The position numbers and the translations under genes were made by a program. 64,000 bases of DNA from Mangrovibacterium sp. (GTDB lineage: Bacteria; Bacteroidota; Bacteroidia; Bacteroidales; Prolixibacteraceae): the NCBI GenBank assembly GCA_047975205.1, contig JBKEDC010000012.1:117907-181906 (forward strand), written 5' to 3'. Positions 1 through 7,291 of this stretch are shown piece after piece. The notes under the pieces were generated by a model, which saw only the letters and a list, made by a program, of their open reading frames with translations, had not been told where the DNA came from and did no database searches. The first letter of the stretch is position 1; every line of letters starts with the position of its first letter.

Positions 1-2082
1 TATAAATTTGAAAGATTAAGTTTTTTTCAGTTATTAAAAAATCGAAGTATTGAAATTCCTATAATTCAGCGAGATTATGCACAAGGTAGAGCAAAAAAAG
101 AAAAAGTACGAAATGATTTTTTAGATGCTCTAAAAAATGCATTAATAGGAAATCCTATTGAACTTGATTTTGTCTATGGTAGTGAAGAAAATAATATTTT
201 ACAACCTTTAGATGGACAACAAAGACTCACAACTTTGTTCCTTTTACATTGGTTTCTTGCTAATAAAGAAGGAGCATTAGAGGAAGCAAAAGAACACTTA
301 TTAAAGTTTACTTATGAAACCCGCACAAGCTCCCGAGAGTTTTGTCAAGAATTGATTTATAAAAGTATTAATTATGAAAATCTGTTGCCAATTGATGAAG
401 AAAAGAAAATAACAACAGACAATCAATTATCAGAAACTATAAAAAATGCCTCTTGGTTTGTTATTTCATGGAAAAACGACCCAACTATTTCCGCAATGCT
501 GATTATGCTTGATGCAATTCAAGCTAAATTCAAAGATAGTTCACATTGGTGGCTAGAATTGACAGAAACAGAAGAAGATAAATGTCCTATTACTTTTCTT
601 TATATCAAATTGGAGAATTTTGGACTTTCCGATGACTTGTATATCAAAATGAATGCTCGAGGAAAAGCGTTAACACCATTTGAGAATTTTAAATCTCGTC
701 TTGAGAAGCATATTAAGGATAACGGCTGGGAAAAAGATATTACCAATCCGCAAGAAATGTTTGCTCACAAAATAGATACTGTTTGGACAGATTTGTTTTG
801 GCAGTATAAAGGAAAAATTAAACGAATAGATGATAGTGGAGAAGTCTCTATTGAATACAAAATAGACGATAGATTAACTAATTTTATTACTGGAATAGCA
901 ATCAATTATTATGCTCAATATTTAGAAATACAGTTAGATAAAGATGATGAAGAGAAAATAAGAAAGGAACTTGAACAAAAAAGTAGAACAAAAAATATTT
1001 CGAAAAATGCTGTAAAACGAGAAAGAGTTGAACGAAGAATGATTACTTTGTTCAATAATCCCGACGAAATTATCCCATCTGATTTCCCTACAAAAGAATC
1101 ATTTAATTATCTGGTAAATTGCTTAAACCTGTATTCTCGCGATAATTATTCAGAATTAAAATCGGATGTTGATTTATGGAATTTTTGTGAAGAAACACTT
1201 TTTAAAGATATTATTAAAAGTAAAAAAACAAAGTGGCAAAGTAGAGTTCTTTTTTATACGCAAACAGTATTTTTATTAAATACTGATATTTATAAAAATT
1301 CTTTCAATGATTGGATGCGTGTAGTGCGAAATATTGTAGAAAATTCAACGATTGATAGTGCTACTACTTTTATTTCAGCAGTAAATTTAATTCACGAGCT
1401 TTCTAATGGTTGTTCCAATATTTACGAATATCTTTCAAATAATACAGTCAAAGCAGGACACGCAGAATATCAAGTAAAAGAAGAAATTGAAAAAGCAAAA
1501 ATAATTATTGCTAATCCTGATGCAAAACAACTTATTCACGATACAGAAGATACAAATTTCTGTAGAGGAGAAATTGATTTTGCTTTGTATTGTATTGATT
1601 ATGATATTGACGAAAATCCTGAACTAACAACTTTTAATAAAAATAAATTAGACAAAACACTTAATGTTATCAAATCCCATTTTGAAAATGATGACGAATA
1701 CGAATTATTTGTTAGAGTATTTTTAACTATAAAAAAGAACGATTATTATAAATGTTGGTGGCAATGGTCATATAGTTTTAAATGTAGGAAAGGAGACCTT
1801 TATAGTCCTACAGGTATGAAATATTTTGCACAAAGTAAAAATTGGCATAGAGAATATTTGAAAGATTTATTTACCCAATTGATTGATAAAGGTAATTTTA
1901 AGCAAATTATAGATGATTATATTATTCCTACAGATATGCCGAATTGGAAACAACGACTAATAAAAGACGAAAATTTGCTAAAAGGTGCTACATTTATTCT
2001 TGTCCCTGATGATAATTCATATTGTAAATTGGCTTGGCAACAAAGACCAAGCAGAGAAGACCAAGTAAAGAAAATTAAATAA
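1..2082 (+). CDS. DUF262 (ParB/Srx-fold, GmrSD N-terminal-like) domain protein; the 5' end runs off the window
   Basis: Frame 1 is open from nt 1. Translating 1-234 gives ...IEIPIIQRDYAQGR... and ...LDGQQRLTTLFLLHW, the two signature DUF262 motifs. IKMNARGKALTPFENFK matches the central DUF262 motif. The ORF-track start at 235 is an internal TTG. Stop is TAA at 2080-2082. I recognised no DUF1524/His-Me nuclease motif in the C-terminal half. Confidence 0.8.
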   Translation, partial: YKFERLSFFQLLKNRSIEIPIIQRDYAQGRAKKEKVRNDFLDALKNALIGNPIELDFVYGSEENNILQPLDGQQRLTTLFLLHWFLANKEGALEEAKEHLLKFTYETRTSSREFCQELIYKSINYENLLPIDEEKKITTDNQLSETIKNASWFVISWKNDPTISAMLIMLDAIQAKFKDSSHWWLELTETEEDKCPITFLYIKLENFGLSDDLYIKMNARGKALTPFENFKSRLEKHIKDNGWEKDITNPQEMFAHKIDTVWTDLFWQYKGKIKRIDDSGEVSIEYKIDDRLTNFITGIAINYYAQYLEIQLDKDDEEKIRKELEQKSRTKNISKNAVKRERVERRMITLFNNPDEIIPSDFPTKESFNYLVNCLNLYSRDNYSELKSDVDLWNFCEETLFKDIIKSKKTKWQSRVLFYTQTVFLLNTDIYKNSFNDWMRVVRNIVENSTIDSATTFISAVNLIHELSNGCSNIYEYLSNNTVKAGHAEYQVKEEIEKAKIIIANPDAKQLIHDTEDTNFCRGEIDFALYCIDYDIDENPELTTFNKNKLDKTLNVIKSHFENDDEYELFVRVFLTIKKNDYYKCWWQWSYSFKCRKGDLYSPTGMKYFAQSKNWHREYLKDLFTQLIDKGNFKQIIDDYIIPTDMPNWKQRLIKDENLLKGATFILVPDDNSYCKLAWQQRPSREDQVKKIK

Positions 2083-2092
2083 GTACAGTTAA

Positions 2093-2124
2093 AAAACAAT
2101 CCCAATGTTTTCAGGGACTGTTTT
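2093..2124 (+). terminator. Possible intrinsic terminator after the DUF262 gene
   Basis: aaaacaatccc (2093-2103) pairs with gggactgtttt (2114-2124) with one mismatch and a 10-nt loop. A T-rich tail (cattttcg) follows. It starts 11 nt after the stop codon. Confidence 0.35.
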
Positions 2125-2170
2125 CATTTTCGAAAATACAACTACGTCATGCTTTGTCTTACTCTCAATT

Positions 2171-2178
2171 TACCTTTG
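2171..2178 (+). promoter_or_regulatory. Bacteroidota-type -7 promoter element (TAnnTTTG) for the AAA+ ATPase operon
   Basis: TACCTTTG at 2171-2178, with 17 nt between the box and the ATG at 2196. The same geometry is seen upstream of rsfS and the HAD gene, and with 19 nt upstream of folP and the SLC13 gene. The motif is frequent by chance in A/T-rich DNA, so only its position supports the call. Confidence 0.35.
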
Positions 2179-2195
2179 TCAAAAAAGATAGGTTT

Positions 2196-3869
2196 ATGGA
2201 AAGTATCACAAAGAAACAAATTCTGGAAAGCATTGGGAAAGTGTACGAACAATCAAAAAATTGTAAGCTTGAAAATTTATTTTTTGAAAGCATAAAATCT
2301 GAACTACATACGCTTTCCCAATATTTCAAAACGTCAGAGAATCAAACCTTTTTTATTGCAATGGTTTTTGCTCTAAACTACAAAGGGGACACTGTTGATT
2401 TAAACGATTTAATAGATTATTTTGAATGTAATCCAATGAAAATTTTGGAATACAGCGATGATTTTGAGTACTTACACAAAGTTGGGATTTTTGAAAAAAA
2501 GAAATCGAGACACCGTGTGAAGTTAGCAGGAGCTAATGACCAATTTGTTATTCATGAAAAAATCACAGAAGCCATTTTGCAAAACAAACCTTTGCCCAAA
2601 ATCAACGAGAATAAAATAAGTGGTATAATAGATTTGTTAGAACAGTTATACAAATTGGGCGATCAACGAGACGATGATAAAATTTCAACCTTTGAACTAT
2701 TTTGGGAAGTTGATAAATTGATTTTAGATAATGCGCATTTTCCGTTAATAGAAAAAGTAAAACAATTCAGTTTAAGTACAGAAGACACTTATCTTTTTTT
2801 ATACTTGATATGGAAAACAGTGTCAGGAAACGAATCTACAGATATTGGAAGAGCTTTGGATGGTATTTATGATAGTTCATCAGAGAGAGTAAATGAAATA
2901 CAAAAATTGTTGTCTGGCAATCATATCCTTATCAATAATAATCTGATTGAAATTATAGAAGCTCAATTTTTCAATGATACCGAAATGAAATTGACGGATA
3001 CTTCTCTTCAACTTCTGAATGATTGTGACATTAAACTTTTTCTAAACAAAAAGAGAAAAGATAATATCATTGTTCCTTCGGAAGTTGTTTATCGTAAATT
3101 GGTTTTTGATAATGAGGAGATGAATCAATTAGAAACGCTTCAAAATTTACTTCAGGAAGCTAAATATCATGAAACACAGATAAGGTTGACAAATAAAGGT
3201 CTACCCCAAGGAATTGCAGTTTTATTGCACGGTGCACCTGGAACAGGAAAAACCGAAATTGTAAAACAATTAGCAAAAGCTACAAACCGAGAAATAATGA
3301 AAGTAGAAATCAGCCAGTCAAAATCTATGTGGTTTGGCGAAAGTGAAAAAATCATTAAACGTATTTTTACGGATTACAGAGCATATGCAAAAGAATCTAA
3401 ACTAACGCCTATTTTATTCTTTAATGAAGCGGATGCCATTATTTCTAAAAGGAAAGAAAACAGTAATTCCAATGTAGCTCAAACTGAAAATGCTATTCAA
3501 AATATTATACTGGAAGAGCTTGAAAACTTTGAAGGTATTTTAATAGCAACTACCAACTTAGCTAATAATTTGGACACTGCTTTTGAACGAAGATTTTTAT
3601 TCAAATTACCTTTCAACAAACCTACAAAAGAGGTAAGAGCTAAAATATGGAAATCAAAATTACCACATTTAGATAATGAGAGTTGTCAATTGCTCGCAGA
3701 TAAGTTTGACTTTTCAGGCGGACAGATAGATAATATTATTCGCAAAAGTGAAATACAGGAAATTGTTCATGGCACTGTGACTAATTTTGAACAAATACAG
3801 TCATTTTGTAATGAAGAATCCATCAGTATAAATAGAACTAAAATTGGATTTGGCTATGCACACGATTAA
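2196..3869 (+). CDS. AAA+ ATPase (classic-clade AAA module at the C-terminus) with an unassigned N-terminal region of about 330 aa
   Basis: Walker A is LLHGAPGTGKTE. The Walker B region is ILFFNEADAI, with N-E where FtsH in this window has IIFIDEIDA. Sensor-1 is IATTN, and AFERRF is arginine-finger-like. I prefer the ATG at 2196 (MESITKK) because the ORF-track TTG at 2154 lies upstream of the putative -7 box. Confidence 0.85.
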   Translation: MESITKKQILESIGKVYEQSKNCKLENLFFESIKSELHTLSQYFKTSENQTFFIAMVFALNYKGDTVDLNDLIDYFECNPMKILEYSDDFEYLHKVGIFEKKKSRHRVKLAGANDQFVIHEKITEAILQNKPLPKINENKISGIIDLLEQLYKLGDQRDDDKISTFELFWEVDKLILDNAHFPLIEKVKQFSLSTEDTYLFLYLIWKTVSGNESTDIGRALDGIYDSSSERVNEIQKLLSGNHILINNNLIEIIEAQFFNDTEMKLTDTSLQLLNDCDIKLFLNKKRKDNIIVPSEVVYRKLVFDNEEMNQLETLQNLLQEAKYHETQIRLTNKGLPQGIAVLLHGAPGTGKTEIVKQLAKATNREIMKVEISQSKSMWFGESEKIIKRIFTDYRAYAKESKLTPILFFNEADAIISKRKENSNSNVAQTENAIQNIILEELENFEGILIATTNLANNLDTAFERRFLFKLPFNKPTKEVRAKIWKSKLPHLDNESCQLLADKFDFSGGQIDNIIRKSEIQEIVHGTVTNFEQIQSFCNEESISINRTKIGFGYAHD

Positions 3870-4419
3870 AATAAAAGACCAAAACATTTTATTGTTATCA
3901 GATACGCATGGTAAACATCGTTTAATCGATATTCCTAAAAATATTCAGATTGTAATTCATTGTGGAGATATTTGTAATGCAGGAGATATGGATGAAATTT
4001 TTGATTGGTATGTTAAATTAGAAATACCACATAAAATATTTATTCATGGAAATCACGATTTACCTTTCGAATTAGAACCAGAATGGGGTAAAAAATTGAT
4101 ACCCAAAAACATTATATGGTTAAATGACGAATCGATTGTAATAAGTGACATAAACATAATGGGAATAAGTGCTTTCCCTTTTTACAAAGGAATCGAAACG
4201 AAAAATAAAATCGATATCATTGCATTACATTATCCTCCTCACGGTATTTTAGATAATGGGTTTGGCAGTAAAGAAATTAGTGATTTTGTATTTCAGTTTG
4301 AGCCAAAGTACCACATATTTGGACACAATCATTCCAACTATGGGATAGAAAAACACAAAAACATTCAGTATATTAACGCATCTATTTATCATAAGTTATG
4401 TCAAAAAGAGAATCAATAG
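3856..4419 (+). CDS. Small calcineurin-like metallophosphoesterase
   Basis: All five metallophosphoesterase motifs are present in order: LSDTHG (DxH), HCGD (GD), HGNHD (GNHD), LHYPPHG (H) and FGHNH (GHxH). The ATG at 3856 overlaps the ATPase stop (3867-3869) by 14 nt. Confidence 0.85.
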   Translation: MHTIKIKDQNILLLSDTHGKHRLIDIPKNIQIVIHCGDICNAGDMDEIFDWYVKLEIPHKIFIHGNHDLPFELEPEWGKKLIPKNIIWLNDESIVISDINIMGISAFPFYKGIETKNKIDIIALHYPPHGILDNGFGSKEISDFVFQFEPKYHIFGHNHSNYGIEKHKNIQYINASIYHKLCQKENQ

Positions 4420-5300
4420 CAAGGTATAATCTCATTATAAAAAAATTAAGAAAGCGACCTGCGACATTTGCCGAAATTGAAGAATATCTTGCCTTGGAAT
4501 CAGAAATTCAAGCCTACAATTTCAATATTTCAAAGCGTACATTTCAACGAGATAGAGACGACATTCGGTCTTTGTACAATATTGATATTTTGTTTGACTT
4601 TTCTAAAAAAGTCTATTACATAGATTTTGACGAACAACCCGAAGCAAACGAAAGGATATTGGAAGCTTTCGATACATTTAATGCTTTAAATTTAACAGAT
4701 AGGCTTTCTAAGCATATTCATTTTGAAAAGCGAAAACCTCAAGGTACAGAACATTTGTATGGAATACTTCATGCTATTAAAAATCAGATTCAAATAAAAT
4801 TTGTGTATCAAAAATATTGGGAAGACGAATTGACTGAAAGATTAGTAGAACCGTATGCACTGAAAGAATTCAAAAACAGATGGTATGTCTTATCAAAAGA
4901 TTTAGTAGATAACAAGATAAAGAATTTTGCACTTGACCGTTTAACAGATTTGGGAATTTTGAATAAGAAATTCAACTTTCCAAAAGATTTTGATATAAAT
5001 GAACATTACAGGTACTGCTTTGGTATTATCAGTCCGAACGATCATCAGCCAGAAGATGTAGTACTTTCTTTCAATGCATTTCAAGGGAAATATATCAAAT
5101 CATTACCGTTACACGATTCTCAACGAATTCTGATAGATAATGAAGATGAATTGAGAATACAGCTTAAGCTATTCATTACACATGATTTCTTTATGGAACT
5201 CTTATCCTTTGGAGAAAACCTTAAAGTACTTAAACCTCAAAGCTTGATTGATGATTTAAAATCAACTGTTAGGAATATTCAAAGTATATATGAAAAGTAG
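4398..5300 (+). CDS. WYL-domain transcriptional regulator (N-terminal HTH plus WYL)
   Basis: The N-terminal segment ARYNLIIKKLRKRPATFAEIEEYL is winged-HTH-like. The central RWYVLSKD...FALDRL is the WYL-domain core. The ATG at 4398 overlaps the phosphoesterase 3' end by 22 nt. Confidence 0.8.
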   Translation: MSKRESIARYNLIIKKLRKRPATFAEIEEYLALESEIQAYNFNISKRTFQRDRDDIRSLYNIDILFDFSKKVYYIDFDEQPEANERILEAFDTFNALNLTDRLSKHIHFEKRKPQGTEHLYGILHAIKNQIQIKFVYQKYWEDELTERLVEPYALKEFKNRWYVLSKDLVDNKIKNFALDRLTDLGILNKKFNFPKDFDINEHYRYCFGIISPNDHQPEDVVLSFNAFQGKYIKSLPLHDSQRILIDNEDELRIQLKLFITHDFFMELLSFGENLKVLKPQSLIDDLKSTVRNIQSIYEK

Positions 5301-5483
5301 AGATTGCATAAATATATTGATAAAGAAAAATTAAAATTTTGTATATTTGCTATGAGCTAACGGAAACACGTTGAAAATGAAAAGCAAAGCAATAAGCACC
5401 GTTACCAAATCGTTACCTGACTTTTTTGATAATCTTTACAAAAGCTTAGTATTCAACCAATACAGCTTTTTCCTGAAAACTTT

Positions 5484-5516
5484 AAAATAAAAAAGATAGA
5501 GACTTGCGTCCCTATC
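5484..5516 (-). terminator. Intrinsic terminator of the phosphohexomutase gene
   Basis: On the minus strand, gatagggacgcaagtctctatc (5516-5495) is a hairpin with one internal mismatch. It is followed by TTTTTTATTTT (A-run at 5484-5494 on the plus strand). It lies 33 nt after the stop at 5549. Confidence 0.5.
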
Positions 5517-5548
5517 CTTTACCATAATGTTTCTTATTTTGGGTCAGC

Positions 5549-7291
5549 CTAGACTAAACCAAGTTCTTGCATGATATTGTCTATTTTTTCTTCAGCAGCA
5601 GCTTCCAATGTATCAAATTCATCTCTTGAGTTCATCGGAGCGGCAATCTCAAAGTAGAATTTAATTTTGGGTTCTGTACCGGAAGGACGGACAGAAATTT
5701 TAGTTCCATCTTCAGTAAAAAATTGCAATACATTTGAAATAGTCTTTTGATTGATTTTAAGCTCTTCACCGGTAATCATATTTTTTTCTACTAATGTACT
5801 ATAATCTTTAACTGATTTTAAACGGCTTCCGCCCAGTGTTGCCGGAGGTGTCTGACGGAAATCAACCATCATTTGTTTGATTTCATCAGCCCCTGTTTTT
5901 CCCGGACGAACAATATACTTCATCTTTTCTTTAGAGTGACCATATTCCAAGTAAATATCTTGGATAAGCTCATAAAGTGTTTTACCTTGTTCTTTAGCCC
6001 AAGCCGCAATTTCACCCATTAAAGCACAAGCAGAAACGGCATCTTTATCACGAACGTAATCAGATGGCATAAAACCAAAGCTTTCTTCGCCTCCTCCAAT
6101 ATATTTTTTTACACCTTCATTGTCACGAATTACCTCAGCAATATATTTGAATCCGGTATAAACATCAAAGAATTCAATACCATTTGCGCGAGCGATATCA
6201 GCAATTTTTTCTGTCGATACGATTGTTTTTACAATAAATTCATTGCCCTTGAAAGCGTTTTTCTCTTTCATCCGGGTAATAATATAGTAGATAAACAACA
6301 AAGCTGTTTGGTTTCCGTTTACGATGATATATTCTCCTTTATCGTTTTTTACAACCACACCGATACGGTCTGAGTCAGGATCTGAAGCCATTACTACATC
6401 AGCATCAACTTCGTAAGCTTTTTTGATAGCCATTTCCATAGCTGCAGGTTCTTCCGGATTAGGAGAAACTACGGTAGGAAAGTCACCACTTACTACGTCT
6501 TGCTCAGGGATATTGATAATATTTTCAAATCCGAAAGCACGGAAAGCTGCCGGAATTAATTTTACACCGGTTCCATGAATAGGAGTGTAAATAATTTTAA
6601 GATCTTTATGCTTAGCCACAATCTCAGGAGCAAGTGATACTTTTTTCACTTCTTCAAGGAACTTGGCGTCAACTTCTTCTCCAATGATTTCAATAAGCTC
6701 CGGGTTTCCTTCAAAGTTAATAGCTGAAGCTGTTACTTTAGCAACTTCATCAATGATATTTACGTCGTGAGGACTTACAACTTGAGATCCGTCATCCCAA
6801 TATGCTTTATATCCGTTGTATTCTTTGGGATTGTGAGATGCGGTTATGATAATACCTGATTGACAGCCGAATTCACGAATTACATATGATAATTCAGGAG
6901 TTGGACGAAGGTCTTCGAAGAGATATACTTTAATTCCGTTAGCAGAAAATATATCAGCACTTTTTTCAGCAAATAAACGACTATTATTGCGACAGTCGTG
7001 CCCTATGGCAACTTTAATTTCATCAAGGTGTGCAAAATTCTTTTTTAAGTAGTTACTCAGTCCTTGAGTTGCAGCACCTACGGTGTAAATGTTCATTCTA
7101 TTTGATCCGGCTCCCATGATTCCGCGAAGGCCTCCGGTTCCGAATTCAAGGTCTTTATAAAATGAATCGATAAGATCTGTTTTATCTTCAGATTCGATCA
7201 TTTTTTTTACCTCTTTGCGTGTAGTTTCATCATATACATCGCTTAGCCATGTTTGAGCCTTTTTAATTACAGGGTCTAAATTCTCTGACAT
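5549..7291 (-). CDS. pgm: Phosphoglucomutase/phosphomannomutase-family phospho-sugar mutase
   Basis: 580 aa. It has the phosphoserine loop TASHNPKEYNGYK, the metal loop ASDPDSDR and the sugar loop GGEESFG. Confidence 0.9.
   Translation of the reverse strand: MSENLDPVIKKAQTWLSDVYDETTRKEVKKMIESEDKTDLIDSFYKDLEFGTGGLRGIMGAGSNRMNIYTVGAATQGLSNYLKKNFAHLDEIKVAIGHDCRNNSRLFAEKSADIFSANGIKVYLFEDLRPTPELSYVIREFGCQSGIIITASHNPKEYNGYKAYWDDGSQVVSPHDVNIIDEVAKVTASAINFEGNPELIEIIGEEVDAKFLEEVKKVSLAPEIVAKHKDLKIIYTPIHGTGVKLIPAAFRAFGFENIINIPEQDVVSGDFPTVVSPNPEEPAAMEMAIKKAYEVDADVVMASDPDSDRIGVVVKNDKGEYIIVNGNQTALLFIYYIITRMKEKNAFKGNEFIVKTIVSTEKIADIARANGIEFFDVYTGFKYIAEVIRDNEGVKKYIGGGEESFGFMPSDYVRDKDAVSACALMGEIAAWAKEQGKTLYELIQDIYLEYGHSKEKMKYIVRPGKTGADEIKQMMVDFRQTPPATLGGSRLKSVKDYSTLVEKNMITGEELKINQKTISNVLQFFTEDGTKISVRPSGTEPKIKFYFEIAAPMNSRDEFDTLEAAAEEKIDNIMQELGLV

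What the first reader, a model, noticed from the sequence alone, without database searches (positions are those of the whole stretch)
1..5300. Candidate undescribed defence cassette: DUF262 protein plus an AAA+ ATPase / metallophosphoesterase / WYL-regulator operon
Four co-directional genes at the window edge carry domains that recur in anti-phage islands. These are DUF262 (the NTPase module of GmrSD, BrxU and SspE), an AAA+ ATPase, a small metallophosphoesterase, and a WYL regulator (compare BrxR and CapW). The last three genes overlap by 14 and 22 nt, implying translational coupling and fixed stoichiometry. A terminator-like hairpin (2093-2124) and a -7 box (2171-2178) suggest that the DUF262 gene and the three-gene operon are separate transcription units placed side by side. 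I cannot assign the ATPase + phosphoesterase + WYL combination to any named system I know (Gabija, Septu, Lamassu, PARIS, Zorya, BREX, DISARM, CBASS, Thoeris, Hachiman and others). The cassette abuts conserved housekeeping genes on the opposite strand, and its upstream context lies outside the window.
Basis: partly seen in the sequence, partly recalled or inferred. Interest (0 to 1): 0.8.

Follow-up and report, generated by a model that had tools for sequence, protein, structure and literature searches.

The report
WYL-controlled defence cargo on mobile element
The four genes are real and sit at the cargo end of a mobilizable element in a Bacteroidota genome, but rather than a fixed three-protein machine they look like interchangeable, uncharacterised cargo genes that share one conserved palindromic operator, most likely bound by the WYL repressor encoded last in the operon.

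Summary
A DUF262 gene ends at 2082. An AAA ATPase (2196-3869), a metallophosphoesterase (3856-4419) and a WYL/WCX protein (4398-5300) follow, overlapping by 14 and 22 nt.

- The DUF262 gene is the last gene of an upstream four-gene operon (small Zn-ribbon protein, DEDDh exonuclease, two DUF262 proteins). The whole region lies on a MobC/relaxase mobilizable element in a Mangrovibacterium MAG.
- The ATPase, phosphoesterase and WYL genes do not form an obligate trio. Only 9 of 80 ATPase loci carry the phosphoesterase. ATPase-WYL and phosphoesterase-WYL pairs each occur without the third gene.
- PADLOC already lists the phosphoesterase family as single-gene candidate PDC-S10. It is an MPPED2-like phosphodiesterase.
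- The ATPase is an uncharacterised Bacteroidota family: two N-terminal winged helices plus a classic-clade unfoldase with an invariant Asn-Glu Walker B.

New here is a 19-bp pseudo-palindrome, TACGACA-N5-TGTCGTA, at a fixed distance from the Bacteroidota -7 box. The window copy is at 2143-2161. It precedes 48 of 92 ATPase genes, 15 of 58 WYL genes and 6 of 6 upstream operons. Its geometry matches BrxR operators.

Best reading: a BrxR-like, WYL-repressed modular defence island. No function has been tested.

The parts
1..2082 (+). DUF262b: the last 693 codons of a 696-aa DUF262/GmrSD_N protein. It has no recognisable nuclease domain. It is the fourth and last gene of the upstream operon (Zn-ribbon protein, DEDDh exonuclease, DUF262a, DUF262b).
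   Evidence: Pfam GmrSD_N 3e-21 over aa 10-234. The C-terminal 426 aa have no Pfam hit even at E 5, no PADLOC hit and no PDB hit. The full gene and operon are seen in L001/L171. The DUF262a/b pair is replaced by alleles of 33-42% identity between conserved flanks in L002 and L003.
2093..2124 (+). Weak terminator-like hairpin after the DUF262b stop codon.
   Evidence: dG -9.3 kcal/mol, z -1.54, 18 of 200 shuffles as good. Not called by the terminator scan. Not conserved in relatives.
2143..2161 (+). 19-bp pseudo-palindromic operator TACGTCA-TGCTT-TGTCTTA (family consensus TACGACA-N5-TGTCGTA). It overlaps the -33 TTTG at 2153-2156.
   Evidence: PWM score 35.9. It is the only hit in the 64-kb window at threshold 12, where shuffles give 0-1 hits. 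The motif is conserved at a fixed distance from the -7 box across loci, and is found in loci not used for training.
2171..2178 (+). Bacteroidota-type -7 promoter box TACCTTTG (TAnnTTTG), 18 nt before the ATPase ATG.
   Evidence: Invariant TAnnTTTG in 9 aligned homologous upstream regions. It lies exactly 12 nt after the 15-nt core of the operator in 27 seed sites.
2196..3869 (+). 557-aa ATPase. Two N-terminal winged-helix modules (aa ~27-119 and ~144-266) precede a classic-clade AAA+ unfoldase domain (aa ~335-545).
   Evidence: Pfam AAA 1.3e-24. AlphaFold models have pLDDT 87.8 (full length) and 92.6 (N-terminus). Foldseek matches Rpt/Msp1/Vps4/p97/FtsH at E ~1e-12 for the AAA part. The N-terminus gives only weak MarR-type wHTH matches. 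Motifs from alignment A3: GxPGTGKT, invariant N410-E411, W379-F380-G381, N454, R465-R466.
3856..4419 (+). 187-aa MPPED2-like metallophosphoesterase (PADLOC candidate PDC-S10). It overlaps the ATPase gene by 14 nt.
   Evidence: Pfam Metallophos 7e-13; PADLOC PDC-S10 2e-44. The family profile matches MPPED2 (3rl4) at 2.8e-34. DxH, GD, GNHD, H and GHxH are all present and invariant in A4.
4398..5300 (+). 300-aa WYL-WCX regulator with a putative N-terminal wHTH. It is the last gene of the operon and overlaps the MPE gene by 22 nt.
   Evidence: Pfam WYL 2.5e-14 and WCX 1.7e-8. The profile matches PafBC, DriD-like 8tp8, BrxR (7qfz 7e-6, 7t8k 6.5e-5) and CapW (5.5e-4) over the WYL/WCX region. Pfam does not detect the N-terminal HTH. 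The motif S45-x-R47-T48-F49-x-R51-D52 is conserved in A10.
5301..5493 (+). Conserved 3' tail of the module. It contains a terminator-like hairpin (5440-5471, followed by a T run) and a non-conserved 38-codon ORF (5377-5493). Similarity to other hosts ends at 5493, which marks the right border of the mobile DNA.
   Evidence: The tail aligns with L002, L003, L175 and, from about 5385 on, with L016. All diverge after CTTTAAAATAAAAA. The hairpin appears in the centroid fold, with one compensatory pair. The region as a whole is not unusually structured (z +0.94).

Best explanation
Window 1-5493 is the right-hand cargo end of an integrated MobC/relaxase mobilizable element in a Mangrovibacterium MAG. 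It carries two transcription units.
- Unit 1: a restriction-like operon (Zn-ribbon protein, DEDDh exonuclease, GmrSD-like DUF262a, DUF262b). Only its last gene is in the window.
- Unit 2: the ATPase-MPE-WYL operon.

Shown here:
- Both units are preceded by the same 19-bp pseudo-palindrome, placed over the -33 element of a Bacteroidota sigma-A-type promoter.
- The ATPase and the MPE are separable cargo modules. Either one occurs with WYL without the other.
- The three-gene block also moves as one unit.

Inferred:
- The WYL-WCX protein is a dimeric, BrxR/CapW-like autoregulated repressor that binds this operator and blocks RNA polymerase.
- A signal sensed by its WYL domain, such as a nucleic-acid fragment or a nucleotide made during infection or DNA damage, releases it and switches on the cargo.
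- The ATPase forms a hexameric protein unfoldase. Its two winged-helix modules select a DNA-bound or foreign protein target.
- The MPPED2-like phosphoesterase hydrolyses a nucleotide or a nucleic-acid end. It acts either as an effector or to reset the WYL ligand.
For: Context:
- The same DNA extended upstream shows MobC_2, a relaxase, HTH_17, a further GmrSD gene, and then the two units.
- ATPase proteins of >=90% identity occur in Elizabethkingia, Sphingobacterium, Chryseobacterium, Myroides and Chitinophagales.

Modularity:
- WYL lies within 4 genes of the ATPase in 27 of 80 genome loci. The MPE does so in 9.
- MPE-centred loci show WYL-MPE and MPE-WYL pairs without the ATPase.
- Four WYL orthologues (76-95% identity) each end an operon built from the same gene set.
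- L016 shares only window 2152-5290, plus part of the tail, at 89% identity.

Operator:
- 137 PWM hits in about 160 loci, against 1 in 60 shuffled loci.
- Hits lie upstream of 48 of 92 ATPase genes, 15 of 58 WYL genes and 6 of 6 Zn-ribbon operons, against 36 of 1272 other ORFs.
- There is a single hit in the whole 64-kb window.
- The motif is present in loci not used for training.
- Perfect palindromes occur, for example before the WYL genes in L019 and L074.

Precedent:
- BrxR binds half-sites 5 bp apart that overlap the -35 element (PMC9122589). The E. fergusonii BrxR uses inverted repeats with a 5-bp spacer and represses a defence island (PMC9122601).
- The WYL profile matches BrxR, CapW and PafBC.

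Defence-type neighbours: SoFic, PDC-S26, PDC-S23/S05/S01, HsdM and cREC.

Proteins.
Against: - No experiment of any kind supports this. Defence is inferred from context alone.
- The HTH of the WYL protein is not detected by Pfam, even at E 5.
- The operator also precedes ATPase genes in 21-kb loci that hold no WYL gene (L059, L061, L072, L017, L024). Either the regulator acts in trans, or another protein binds the site. The ATPase itself has two MarR-like winged helices.
- The PWM was trained mainly on ATPase upstream regions, so the 48 of 92 figure is partly circular.
- Many ATPase neighbours are housekeeping genes.
- The invariant Asn at the Walker B position may mean slow or no ATP hydrolysis.
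- The 14- and 22-nt overlaps, conserved from 53 to 95% ATPase identity, could still reflect a functional ATPase-MPE complex in this sub-clade.
Confidence: 0.55

Rival explanations
1. One reading: ATPase, phosphoesterase and WYL protein form one obligate three-component defence system. Translational coupling fixes their stoichiometry, and WYL acts as the sensor subunit rather than as a transcription factor.
For: The 14- and 22-nt overlaps recur in L002, L003, L016, L018, L024, L082-85, L092 and L175. The three genes move together as one block into an unrelated context in L016.
Against: Only 9 of 80 ATPase loci have the MPE. In close relatives (58-66% identity) WYL follows the ATPase directly, at a 4-13 nt gap. 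MPE-WYL pairs lack the ATPase, and ATPase-MPE pairs lack WYL (L024/L091, L018). The WYL gene has its own copy of the operator where it starts an operon.
Confidence: 0.15
2. The ATPase binds the operator itself through its tandem winged helices. It would be an autoregulated, DNA-bound remodeller, for instance one that evicts the WYL repressor or other proteins from DNA. WYL would then be a second, independent regulator.
For: The N-terminus folds into two MarR-like wHTH modules. The operator precedes ATPase genes in loci without any WYL gene (L059, L061, L072). L059 and L061 carry two tandem operators.
Against: The operator also precedes WYL-led operons in loci with no ATPase (L087-90, L183, L187). 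The wHTH matches are weak (E 0.03-0.4). The operator geometry matches what has been measured for WYL regulators (PMC9122589, PMC9122601).
Confidence: 0.12
3. The genes are not immunity genes. They form a stress or nucleic-acid-end repair regulon, or a maintenance (addiction) module serving the mobile element. The phosphoesterase, DEDDh exonuclease and cREC would process damaged RNA or DNA ends, and the ATPase would behave like the IetA half of the IetAS plasmid-stability pair.
For: cREC (predicted to process cyclic phosphates), calcineurin-like phosphoesterases and WYL regulators are linked to RNA-repair contexts in comparative analyses (PMC9503650). cREC genes recur in these loci. The best PADLOC and NCBIfam hit of the ATPase is IetA, which was first described as part of a plasmid-stability toxin-antitoxin pair (reference list of PMC13069673). 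The region is on a mobilizable element.
Against: There is no RNA ligase, kinase or RtcB-type gene nearby. The IetA match covers only the AAA domain, at 87 bits against a cut-off of 510, and there is no IetS protease. The neighbours include GmrSD-type restriction genes and SoFic.
Confidence: 0.15

Closest known systems
BrxR-family WYL regulators of defence islands (Acinetobacter and E. fergusonii BrxR); CapW of CBASS
   Same: WYL + WCX architecture. A pseudo-palindromic operator with half-sites 5 bp apart, overlapping the upstream promoter element. The same operator recurs before more than one unit of an island. The regulator is attached to varied defence cargo (PMC9122589, PMC9122601, PMC9122588).
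   Different: Only distant sequence similarity (E 7e-6 to 5e-4, WYL domain only). The regulator gene is the last gene of the operon, not an upstream or divergent one. Pfam does not recognise the N-terminal HTH. The cargo families are different and uncharacterised. The promoter is of the Bacteroidota -33/-7 type.
PADLOC candidate PDC-S10 (single-gene phage defence candidate) / MPPED2-type metallophosphodiesterases
   Same: The MPE matches the PDC-S10 model almost end to end (2e-44). Its family profile matches MPPED2 at 2.8e-34. All metal-binding motifs are intact.
   Different: PDC-S10 is a prediction with no tested phenotype that I could find; the single listed paper that mentions it does so once, in passing, and I did not open it. 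Here the gene is translationally coupled to an ATPase and to WYL, a link the single-gene definition does not capture.
IetAS (IetA AAA ATPase + IetS protease)
   Same: Classic-clade AAA domain. IetA is the best PADLOC and NCBIfam hit (2.8e-27 and 1.6e-24).
   Different: The match covers only the AAA domain, at 86.8 bits against a cut-off of 510. There is no IetS protease. The 310-aa tandem winged-helix N-terminus is specific to this family.
GmrSD / BrxU / SspE DUF262 type IV restriction enzymes
   Same: Both upstream proteins have the DUF262 (GmrSD_N) NTPase-like domain. DUF262a also has a borderline DUF1524 nuclease match (22.0 bits against a cut-off of 23) and PADLOC HEC-06/Orf5/SspE N-terminal hits.
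   Different: Two DUF262 proteins are paired with a DEDDh exonuclease and a Zn-ribbon protein. The window's DUF262b has no nuclease domain and matches no PADLOC model. The pair is exchanged as a cassette between otherwise conserved elements.
Classic-clade AAA+ unfoldases (p97/Cdc48 D2, Rpt, Vps4, Msp1, FtsH)
   Same: The fold (Foldseek E ~1e-12), Walker A, the W-F-G pore loop, sensor-1 Asn, and the two SRH arginines.
   Different: Walker B reads Asn-Glu rather than Asp-Glu in all 73 aligned sequences. The protein has a single AAA domain and a novel N-terminus. It has no protease or membrane domain.

Membership tests
WYL transcription regulators of the BrxR/CapW/PafBC type | WYL domain followed by a WCX domain | tested here: met
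   Pfam WYL 2.5e-14 (aa 119-185) and WCX 1.7e-8 (aa 218-294). The profile matches PafBC, BrxR and CapW over this region.
WYL transcription regulators of the BrxR/CapW/PafBC type | N-terminal winged helix-turn-helix DNA-binding domain | tested here: inconclusive
   No Pfam HTH hit for aa 1-110, even at E 5. PDB matches start at aa ~118. A PADLOC WYL profile aligns aa 9-283. The motif S-x-R-T-F-x-R-D is conserved, which I recognise from my own knowledge as the recognition-helix signature of YafY/HTH_11-type regulators. NCBI names the protein an HTH regulator.
WYL transcription regulators of the BrxR/CapW/PafBC type | Binds a palindromic operator in its own promoter or its cargo's promoter | not testable with these tools
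   A conserved 19-bp pseudo-palindrome with a 5-bp spacer is present over the -33 element, also before WYL-led operons. Binding itself needs EMSA or a reporter assay.
WYL transcription regulators of the BrxR/CapW/PafBC type | Close sequence membership in the BrxR family proper | tested here: not met
   A single-sequence search does not reach BrxR at E 0.01. The profile reaches 7qfz at 7e-6 and 7t8k at 6.5e-5, on the WYL domain only.
IetAS | IetA-type ATPase above the family cut-off | tested here: not met
   NCBIfam IteA 86.8 bits against a cut-off of 510, AAA domain only.
IetAS | Adjacent IetS subtilisin-like protease | tested here: not met
   No protease gene in the window region or in the 80 related loci.
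PADLOC PDC-S10 candidate | Match to the PDC-S10 model | tested here: met
   PDLC04908, 2e-44, aa 7-184 against profile positions 8-207 of 223.
Calcineurin-like metallophosphoesterases (MPPED2-like) | Five metal-binding motifs: DxH, GDxx(D), GNH(D/E), H, GHxH | tested here: met
   D16-T-H18, G37-D38, G65-N66-H67-D68, H125 and H157-x-H159 are invariant in A4. MPPED2 matches at 2.8e-34.
GmrSD/BrxU/SspE type IV restriction enzymes | N-terminal DUF262 domain | tested here: met
   GmrSD_N 3e-21 for the window protein and 2.9e-35 for its upstream partner.
GmrSD/BrxU/SspE type IV restriction enzymes | C-terminal DUF1524 His-Me nuclease domain | tested here: not met
   The window protein has no GmrSD_C hit and no hit of any kind in its last 426 aa. 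Only the upstream DUF262a has a borderline hit, 22.0 bits against a cut-off of 23.
Classic-clade AAA+ unfoldases | Walker A, catalytic Walker B, aromatic pore loop, sensor 1, SRH arginine fingers | tested here: inconclusive
   All are present except the Walker B Asp, which is an invariant Asn (N410-E411). The fold match is strong.
Gabija, Septu, Lamassu, PARIS, Zorya, BREX, DISARM, CBASS, Thoeris, Hachiman and other named systems (PADLOC-DB v2.0.0 holds 5027 models of known and candidate systems; I did not check that each name is covered) | Any signature protein model matched | tested here: not met
   The PADLOC scan of all four window proteins gives only IetA/TRIP13 (AAA domain), PDC-S10, and generic WYL/Cas3c-WYL. 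Newer DefenseFinder models were not available.

The most novel reading that the evidence does not exclude
The shared operator defines a WYL regulon found mainly across Bacteroidota: an inducible, mix-and-match immune island. Its cargo families are the tandem-winged-helix AAA unfoldase with an Asn-Glu Walker B, the MPPED2-like phosphodiesterase, the Zn-ribbon/DEDDh/paired-DUF262 operon, cREC, DUF2779 and others. On this reading each is a new anti-phage or anti-plasmid effector, and the ATPase is a previously unrecognised stand-alone defence protein that removes or unfolds a DNA-bound invader protein.
Probability: 0.3. Interest if true: 0.75.

Novelty: new variant of a known kind. Interest (0 to 1): 0.55.

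Why it matters
Defence systems of Bacteroidota are far less explored than those of Proteobacteria and Firmicutes.

- **A handle on a regulon.** One conserved operator links a WYL regulator to at least three uncharacterised gene families, on elements that move between classes of the phylum. The palindrome can be searched genome-wide to list co-regulated cargo. The inducing signal can be sought with a simple reporter.
- **An untouched protein family.** The ATPase family has more than 7,900 homologues in the protein search and 791 clusters at 50% identity (found with its N-terminal domain). It has a fixed architecture and no studied member.
- **A correction to current annotation.** PDC-S10 is frequently wired to a WYL regulator and sometimes to this ATPase, which its single-gene definition misses.

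Tried and rejected
- **Named systems.** PADLOC, NCBIfam, Pfam and PHROGs on all four proteins and on the upstream genes found no multi-gene system.
- **Terminator hairpin as evidence for two units.** It is statistically weak and not conserved. The operator and the recombination breakpoints replace it.
- **Palindrome ATTTTCGAAAAT at 2126-2137.** It is not conserved in relatives and lies outside the shared block, so it was dropped as an operator candidate.
- **Bacteroidetes SOS box.** The published LexA-like motifs are GGA-N5-TCC and CTAA-N5-TTAG (PMC8565304), which differ from the motif found here.
- **Fold of the ATPase N-terminus.** Neither PDB nor BFVD gives a match at E < 0.001. Only generic MarR-type winged helices appear.
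- **C-terminal half of DUF262b.** No Pfam, PADLOC or PDB sequence hit.
- **Phage origin.** Nine loci related to the ATPase turned up in 2.9 million viral contigs, four of them spanning nearly its full length. Only one carries an operator hit, and it is not upstream of the gene.
- **Structured RNA or tRNA att site in 1-6000.** None found. The 3' tail is not unusually structured.
- **Literature.** No paper describes this ATPase family or the triad.

Full report
**1. Observation.**
- The first ORF is open from nt 1 to the stop at 2082.
- The ATPase runs from ATG 2196 to 3869, the phosphoesterase (MPE) from ATG 3856 to 4419, and the WYL protein from ATG 4398 to 5300. The overlaps are 14 and 22 nt.
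- Pfam gives GmrSD_N (DUF262), AAA (PF00004), Metallophos, and WYL plus WCX.
- The -7 box TACCTTTG is at 2171-2178.
- The hairpin at 2093-2124 exists but is weak: dG -9.3 kcal/mol, z -1.54, and 18 of 200 shuffles fold as well. The terminator scan does not call it.
- GC content is 0.27-0.32 up to about 5500, against 0.36-0.39 in the next 2.5 kb.

**2. Where it sits.** An exact-protein look-up recovered the same DNA on a Logan contig that extends 10-12 kb upstream (L001, L171).
- Gene order is: a GmrSD_N+GmrSD_C protein, three small reverse-strand genes (one an HTH_17 protein), a further small gene, MobC_2, a relaxase, an 83-aa Zn-ribbon protein ('s83'), a 163-aa DEDDh/RNase_T exonuclease, a 571-aa DUF262 protein with a borderline DUF1524 match (DUF262a), the 696-aa DUF262 protein of the window (DUF262b), the ATPase, the MPE, WYL, and then phospho-sugar mutase on the other strand.
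- The last four genes before the ATPase abut or overlap (0, -4 and -14 nt), so they form one operon.
- NCBI holds the identical proteins as MFV0521291-95 from a Mangrovibacterium sp. MAG contig of 251,728 nt.
- ATPase proteins of >=90% identity occur in Elizabethkingia anophelis, Sphingobacterium, Chryseobacterium, Myroides and Chitinophagales. The block therefore moves between classes of Bacteroidota.
- The finding is thus the cargo end of a mobilizable element. The DUF262 gene is not a stand-alone gene.

**3. The proteins.**

*ATPase.*
- A protein search returned 7,926 homologues. The top 120 keep the same length.
- A search of 1.84 billion cluster representatives with the N-terminal 330 aa found 791 clusters at 50% identity, most of the full-length ones ~555 aa. 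The architecture is fixed.
- AlphaFold models are confident: pLDDT 87.8 for the full length and 92.6 for aa 1-312.
- The C-terminal half matches substrate-threading unfoldases (Rpt subunits, Msp1/ATAD1, Vps4, p97, FtsH) at E ~1e-12. A sequence profile matches VCP/p97 D2 and CdvC.
- The 73-sequence alignment shows GxPGTGKT, a W-F-G pore loop, sensor-1 N454 and arginines R465-R466. The Walker B position carries an invariant Asn-Glu instead of Asp-Glu.
- The N-terminus consists of two helical/beta-hairpin modules. Their only structural neighbours are MarR-type winged helices (probability up to 0.99, E 0.03-0.4). No whole-domain match exists in PDB or BFVD.
- PADLOC and NCBIfam hit IetA only over the AAA domain, far below the family cut-off.

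*MPE.*
- It matches PADLOC's single-gene candidate PDC-S10 nearly end to end, at 2e-44.
- The family profile matches mammalian MPPED2 at 2.8e-34.
- All metal-binding motifs are invariant.

*WYL protein.*
- It has WYL and WCX domains. Its profile reaches PafBC, a DeoR-family WYL regulator (8tp8), BrxR and CapW.
- Pfam does not detect its N-terminal HTH. The motif S-x-R-T-F-x-R-D is conserved.

*DUF262b.* It has only the DUF262 domain. Its last 426 aa match nothing.

**4. Do the genes belong together?** I looked from three sides.

*(a) ATPase-centred: 80 genome loci at 35-95% identity.*
- WYL lies within four genes in 27 loci. It often follows directly, at a gap of 4-13 nt (L006, L012, L014, L029, L032).
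- The MPE is present in only 9 loci.
- The s83/DEDDh/DUF262 operon is present in about 9 loci, in variable order.
- Many distant loci have none of these genes.

*(b) MPE-centred: 80 metagenome loci.*
- The arrangements include ATPase-MPE-WYL and ATPase-MPE without WYL.
- WYL-MPE pairs (L087-90, L124, L140) and MPE-WYL pairs (L107, L108, L114, L116) occur without the ATPase.
- Distant MPEs stand alone.

*(c) WYL-centred: four orthologues at 76-95% identity.* Each is the last gene of an operon built from the same set:
- DEDDh - DUF262 - DUF262 - cREC - AAA - MPE - WYL
- 98-aa protein - MPE - WYL
- AAA - WYL
- s83 - DEDDh - GmrSD - 256-aa protein - WYL

*Conclusions from the three views.*
- WYL is the hub. 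The ATPase and the MPE are separable.
- The three-gene block can still move as a unit. A Taibaiella MAG (L016) shares only window 2152-5290 at 89% identity, plus part of the 3' tail.
- In L002 and L003 the flanks are 88-96% identical, but the DUF262a/b pair is replaced by alleles of 33-42% identity. The pair is therefore a swappable cassette.
- Other recurrent neighbours are cREC (PF20274), PDDEXK_4/PDC-S26, SoFic, DUF2779, a DnaB_C-like ATPase and HsdM. These sit alongside ordinary housekeeping genes.

**5. A shared operator.**
- Aligning the upstream regions showed an invariant TAnnTTTG. A conserved block, ACGACAC...TTGTC, lies before it.
- A regular-expression search and then a PWM scan showed a 19-bp pseudo-palindrome, TACGACA-N5-TGTCGTA. 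Its 15-nt core ends exactly 12 nt before the -7 box, so the right half-site covers the -33 TTTG.
- At PWM threshold 14 there are 137 hits in about 160 loci, against 1 in 60 shuffled loci.
- Hits lie within 200 nt upstream of 48 of 92 ATPase genes, 15 of 58 WYL genes (most of the rest are internal to operons), 6 of 6 s83 genes and 3 of 7 copies of a 76-aa gene. Only 36 of 1272 other ORFs have one.
- The 64-kb window has one hit, at 2143-2179 (score 35.9). Shuffles give 0-1 hits.
- A weaker copy precedes the s83 operon just outside the window (L001 3055).
- Perfect palindromes occur before WYL genes (L019, L074) and before ATPase genes (L059).
- The motif is also found in the WYL-centred loci that played no part in building the PWM: L175, L183, and two copies in L187.
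- It is not the Bacteroidetes SOS box, which is GGA-N5-TCC or CTAA-N5-TTAG (PMC8565304).
- Caveat: the PWM was trained mostly on ATPase upstream regions.

**6. Mechanism.**

*Shown:*
- There are two units with one operator type.
- The cargo is modular.
- The DNA is mobile and horizontally spread.
- The MPE has an intact active site.
- The ATPase has an unfoldase fold, a pore loop and arginine fingers.

*Inferred:*
- The WYL protein binds the operator as a dimer and represses both units and itself. This would work as BrxR does at a pseudo-palindrome with half-sites 5 nt apart over the -35 (PMC9122589), and as the E. fergusonii BrxR does at 11-bp inverted repeats with a 5-bp spacer at two places in its island (PMC9122601).
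- WYL domains of characterised regulators bind nucleic acids or nucleotides (reviewed in PMC9122601; predictions in PMC9503650). The trigger is therefore probably a nucleic-acid fragment or a nucleotide that appears on infection or DNA damage.
- The ATPase would then act as a hexameric unfoldase aimed at its target by the winged helices.
- The MPE would act as a phosphodiesterase on a nucleotide or a nucleic-acid end. It would serve either as an effector or as a reset of the WYL ligand.

I put 0.55 on this overall picture. I put much less on the specific roles of the ATPase and the MPE.

**7. Rivals.**
- The obligate-trio reading is contradicted by the co-occurrence data, but the conserved overlaps keep it alive for this sub-clade.
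- The ATPase might itself bind the operator. The operator occurs before ATPase genes in 21-kb loci without WYL (L059, L061, L072). It also occurs before WYL operons in 15-kb loci without the ATPase (L183, L187), so genomic data cannot decide.
- A repair or element-maintenance role is possible, given cREC, DEDDh, the MPE and the IetA resemblance. There are, however, no ligase or kinase partners.

**8. Comparison and novelty.**
- The organisation works like a BrxR- or CapW-controlled defence island. By sequence, however, the regulator is only a distant WYL relative.
- The regulator is encoded last in the operon, and the promoter is of the Bacteroidota type.
- The MPE belongs to an already listed but untested candidate, PDC-S10.
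- The ATPase family is undescribed, and so is the s83/DEDDh/paired-DUF262 operon.
- No named multi-gene system matches.
- I rate it a new variant of a known kind. It is interesting mainly for the operator, which makes the regulon and its trigger directly testable, and for the large, unstudied ATPase family.

Noticed in passing
L001 3893-7685 versus L002 5882-9900 and L003 5553-9640 (window 1-2082 is the 3' part): Between flanks that are 88-96% identical, the paired DUF262a/DUF262b genes are replaced by alleles of only 33-42% amino-acid identity. The pair behaves as an exchangeable specificity cassette, which would fit diversifying selection on a restriction-like function.
   Followed up: partly
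window 3421-3429 (ATPase codons 409-411); alignment A3: The Walker B motif reads hhhh-Asn-Glu, not Asp-Glu, in all 73 aligned family members (N410 and E411 invariant). Walker A, sensor 1 and the arginine fingers are canonical. This may mean slow, switch-like ATP turnover.
   Followed up: partly
window 5301-5493: A ~190-nt tail after the WYL stop is conserved with the module in four other hosts and ends at the same base in all of them (CTTTAAAATAAAAA). It holds a TAnnTTTG-like box (5342-5349), a 38-codon ORF (5377-5493) whose frame is broken in L016, and a hairpin followed by a T run (5440-5476). It could be the operon terminator plus the element's end or recombination site.
   Followed up: partly
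L003 9649-9936; L175 4436-4729; L083; L087-90; L124; L140: A ~97-130-aa cREC_REC protein (PF20274, predicted to process cyclic phosphates) is inserted between DUF262b and the ATPase in close relatives, and recurs near WYL-MPE pairs. It is absent from the window.
   Followed up: partly
window 3997-4005 region (MPE aa ~48-50): The window's MPE lacks three residues (DEIF[DFF]DWY) that are present in close relatives, including the 190-aa copies next to an identical ATPase in sister contigs of the same study (L172-L174). The L016 copy has Arg in place of the Gly of GNHD.
   Followed up: no
L171 1-831: A third GmrSD-type gene (596 aa, GmrSD_N + GmrSD_C) lies upstream of the mobilization genes on the same contig. 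At least three DUF262-family genes therefore lie within about 10 kb on this contig; whether the third is inside the element is not known, because its left end was not defined.
   Followed up: no
L059 9670-9737 and L061 9670-9737: Two operator copies lie in tandem, 31 nt apart, upstream of the ATPase gene in two rumen Bacteroidia MAGs that have no WYL gene within 10 kb on either side.
   Followed up: no
window 2126-2137: A perfect 12-bp palindrome, ATTTTCGAAAAT, lies just upstream of the operator. It is specific to this contig and lies outside the block shared with relatives.
   Followed up: yes
L001 3153-3404 and homologues (L002, L003, L009, L017, L018, L187): An 83-aa protein with two Zn-ribbon-like CxxC pairs always opens the DEDDh/DUF262 operon, and always carries the operator upstream (6 of 6). 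In L017 and L018 it also follows the ATPase directly. Its function is unknown.
   Followed up: partly
L006 (Robiginitomaculum MAG), L025 (Cloacimonadota), L068 (Treponemataceae MAG), L010 (Balneolales): A few full-length ATPase homologues are assigned to non-Bacteroidota MAGs. These could reflect real transfer or mis-binned contigs.
   Followed up: no
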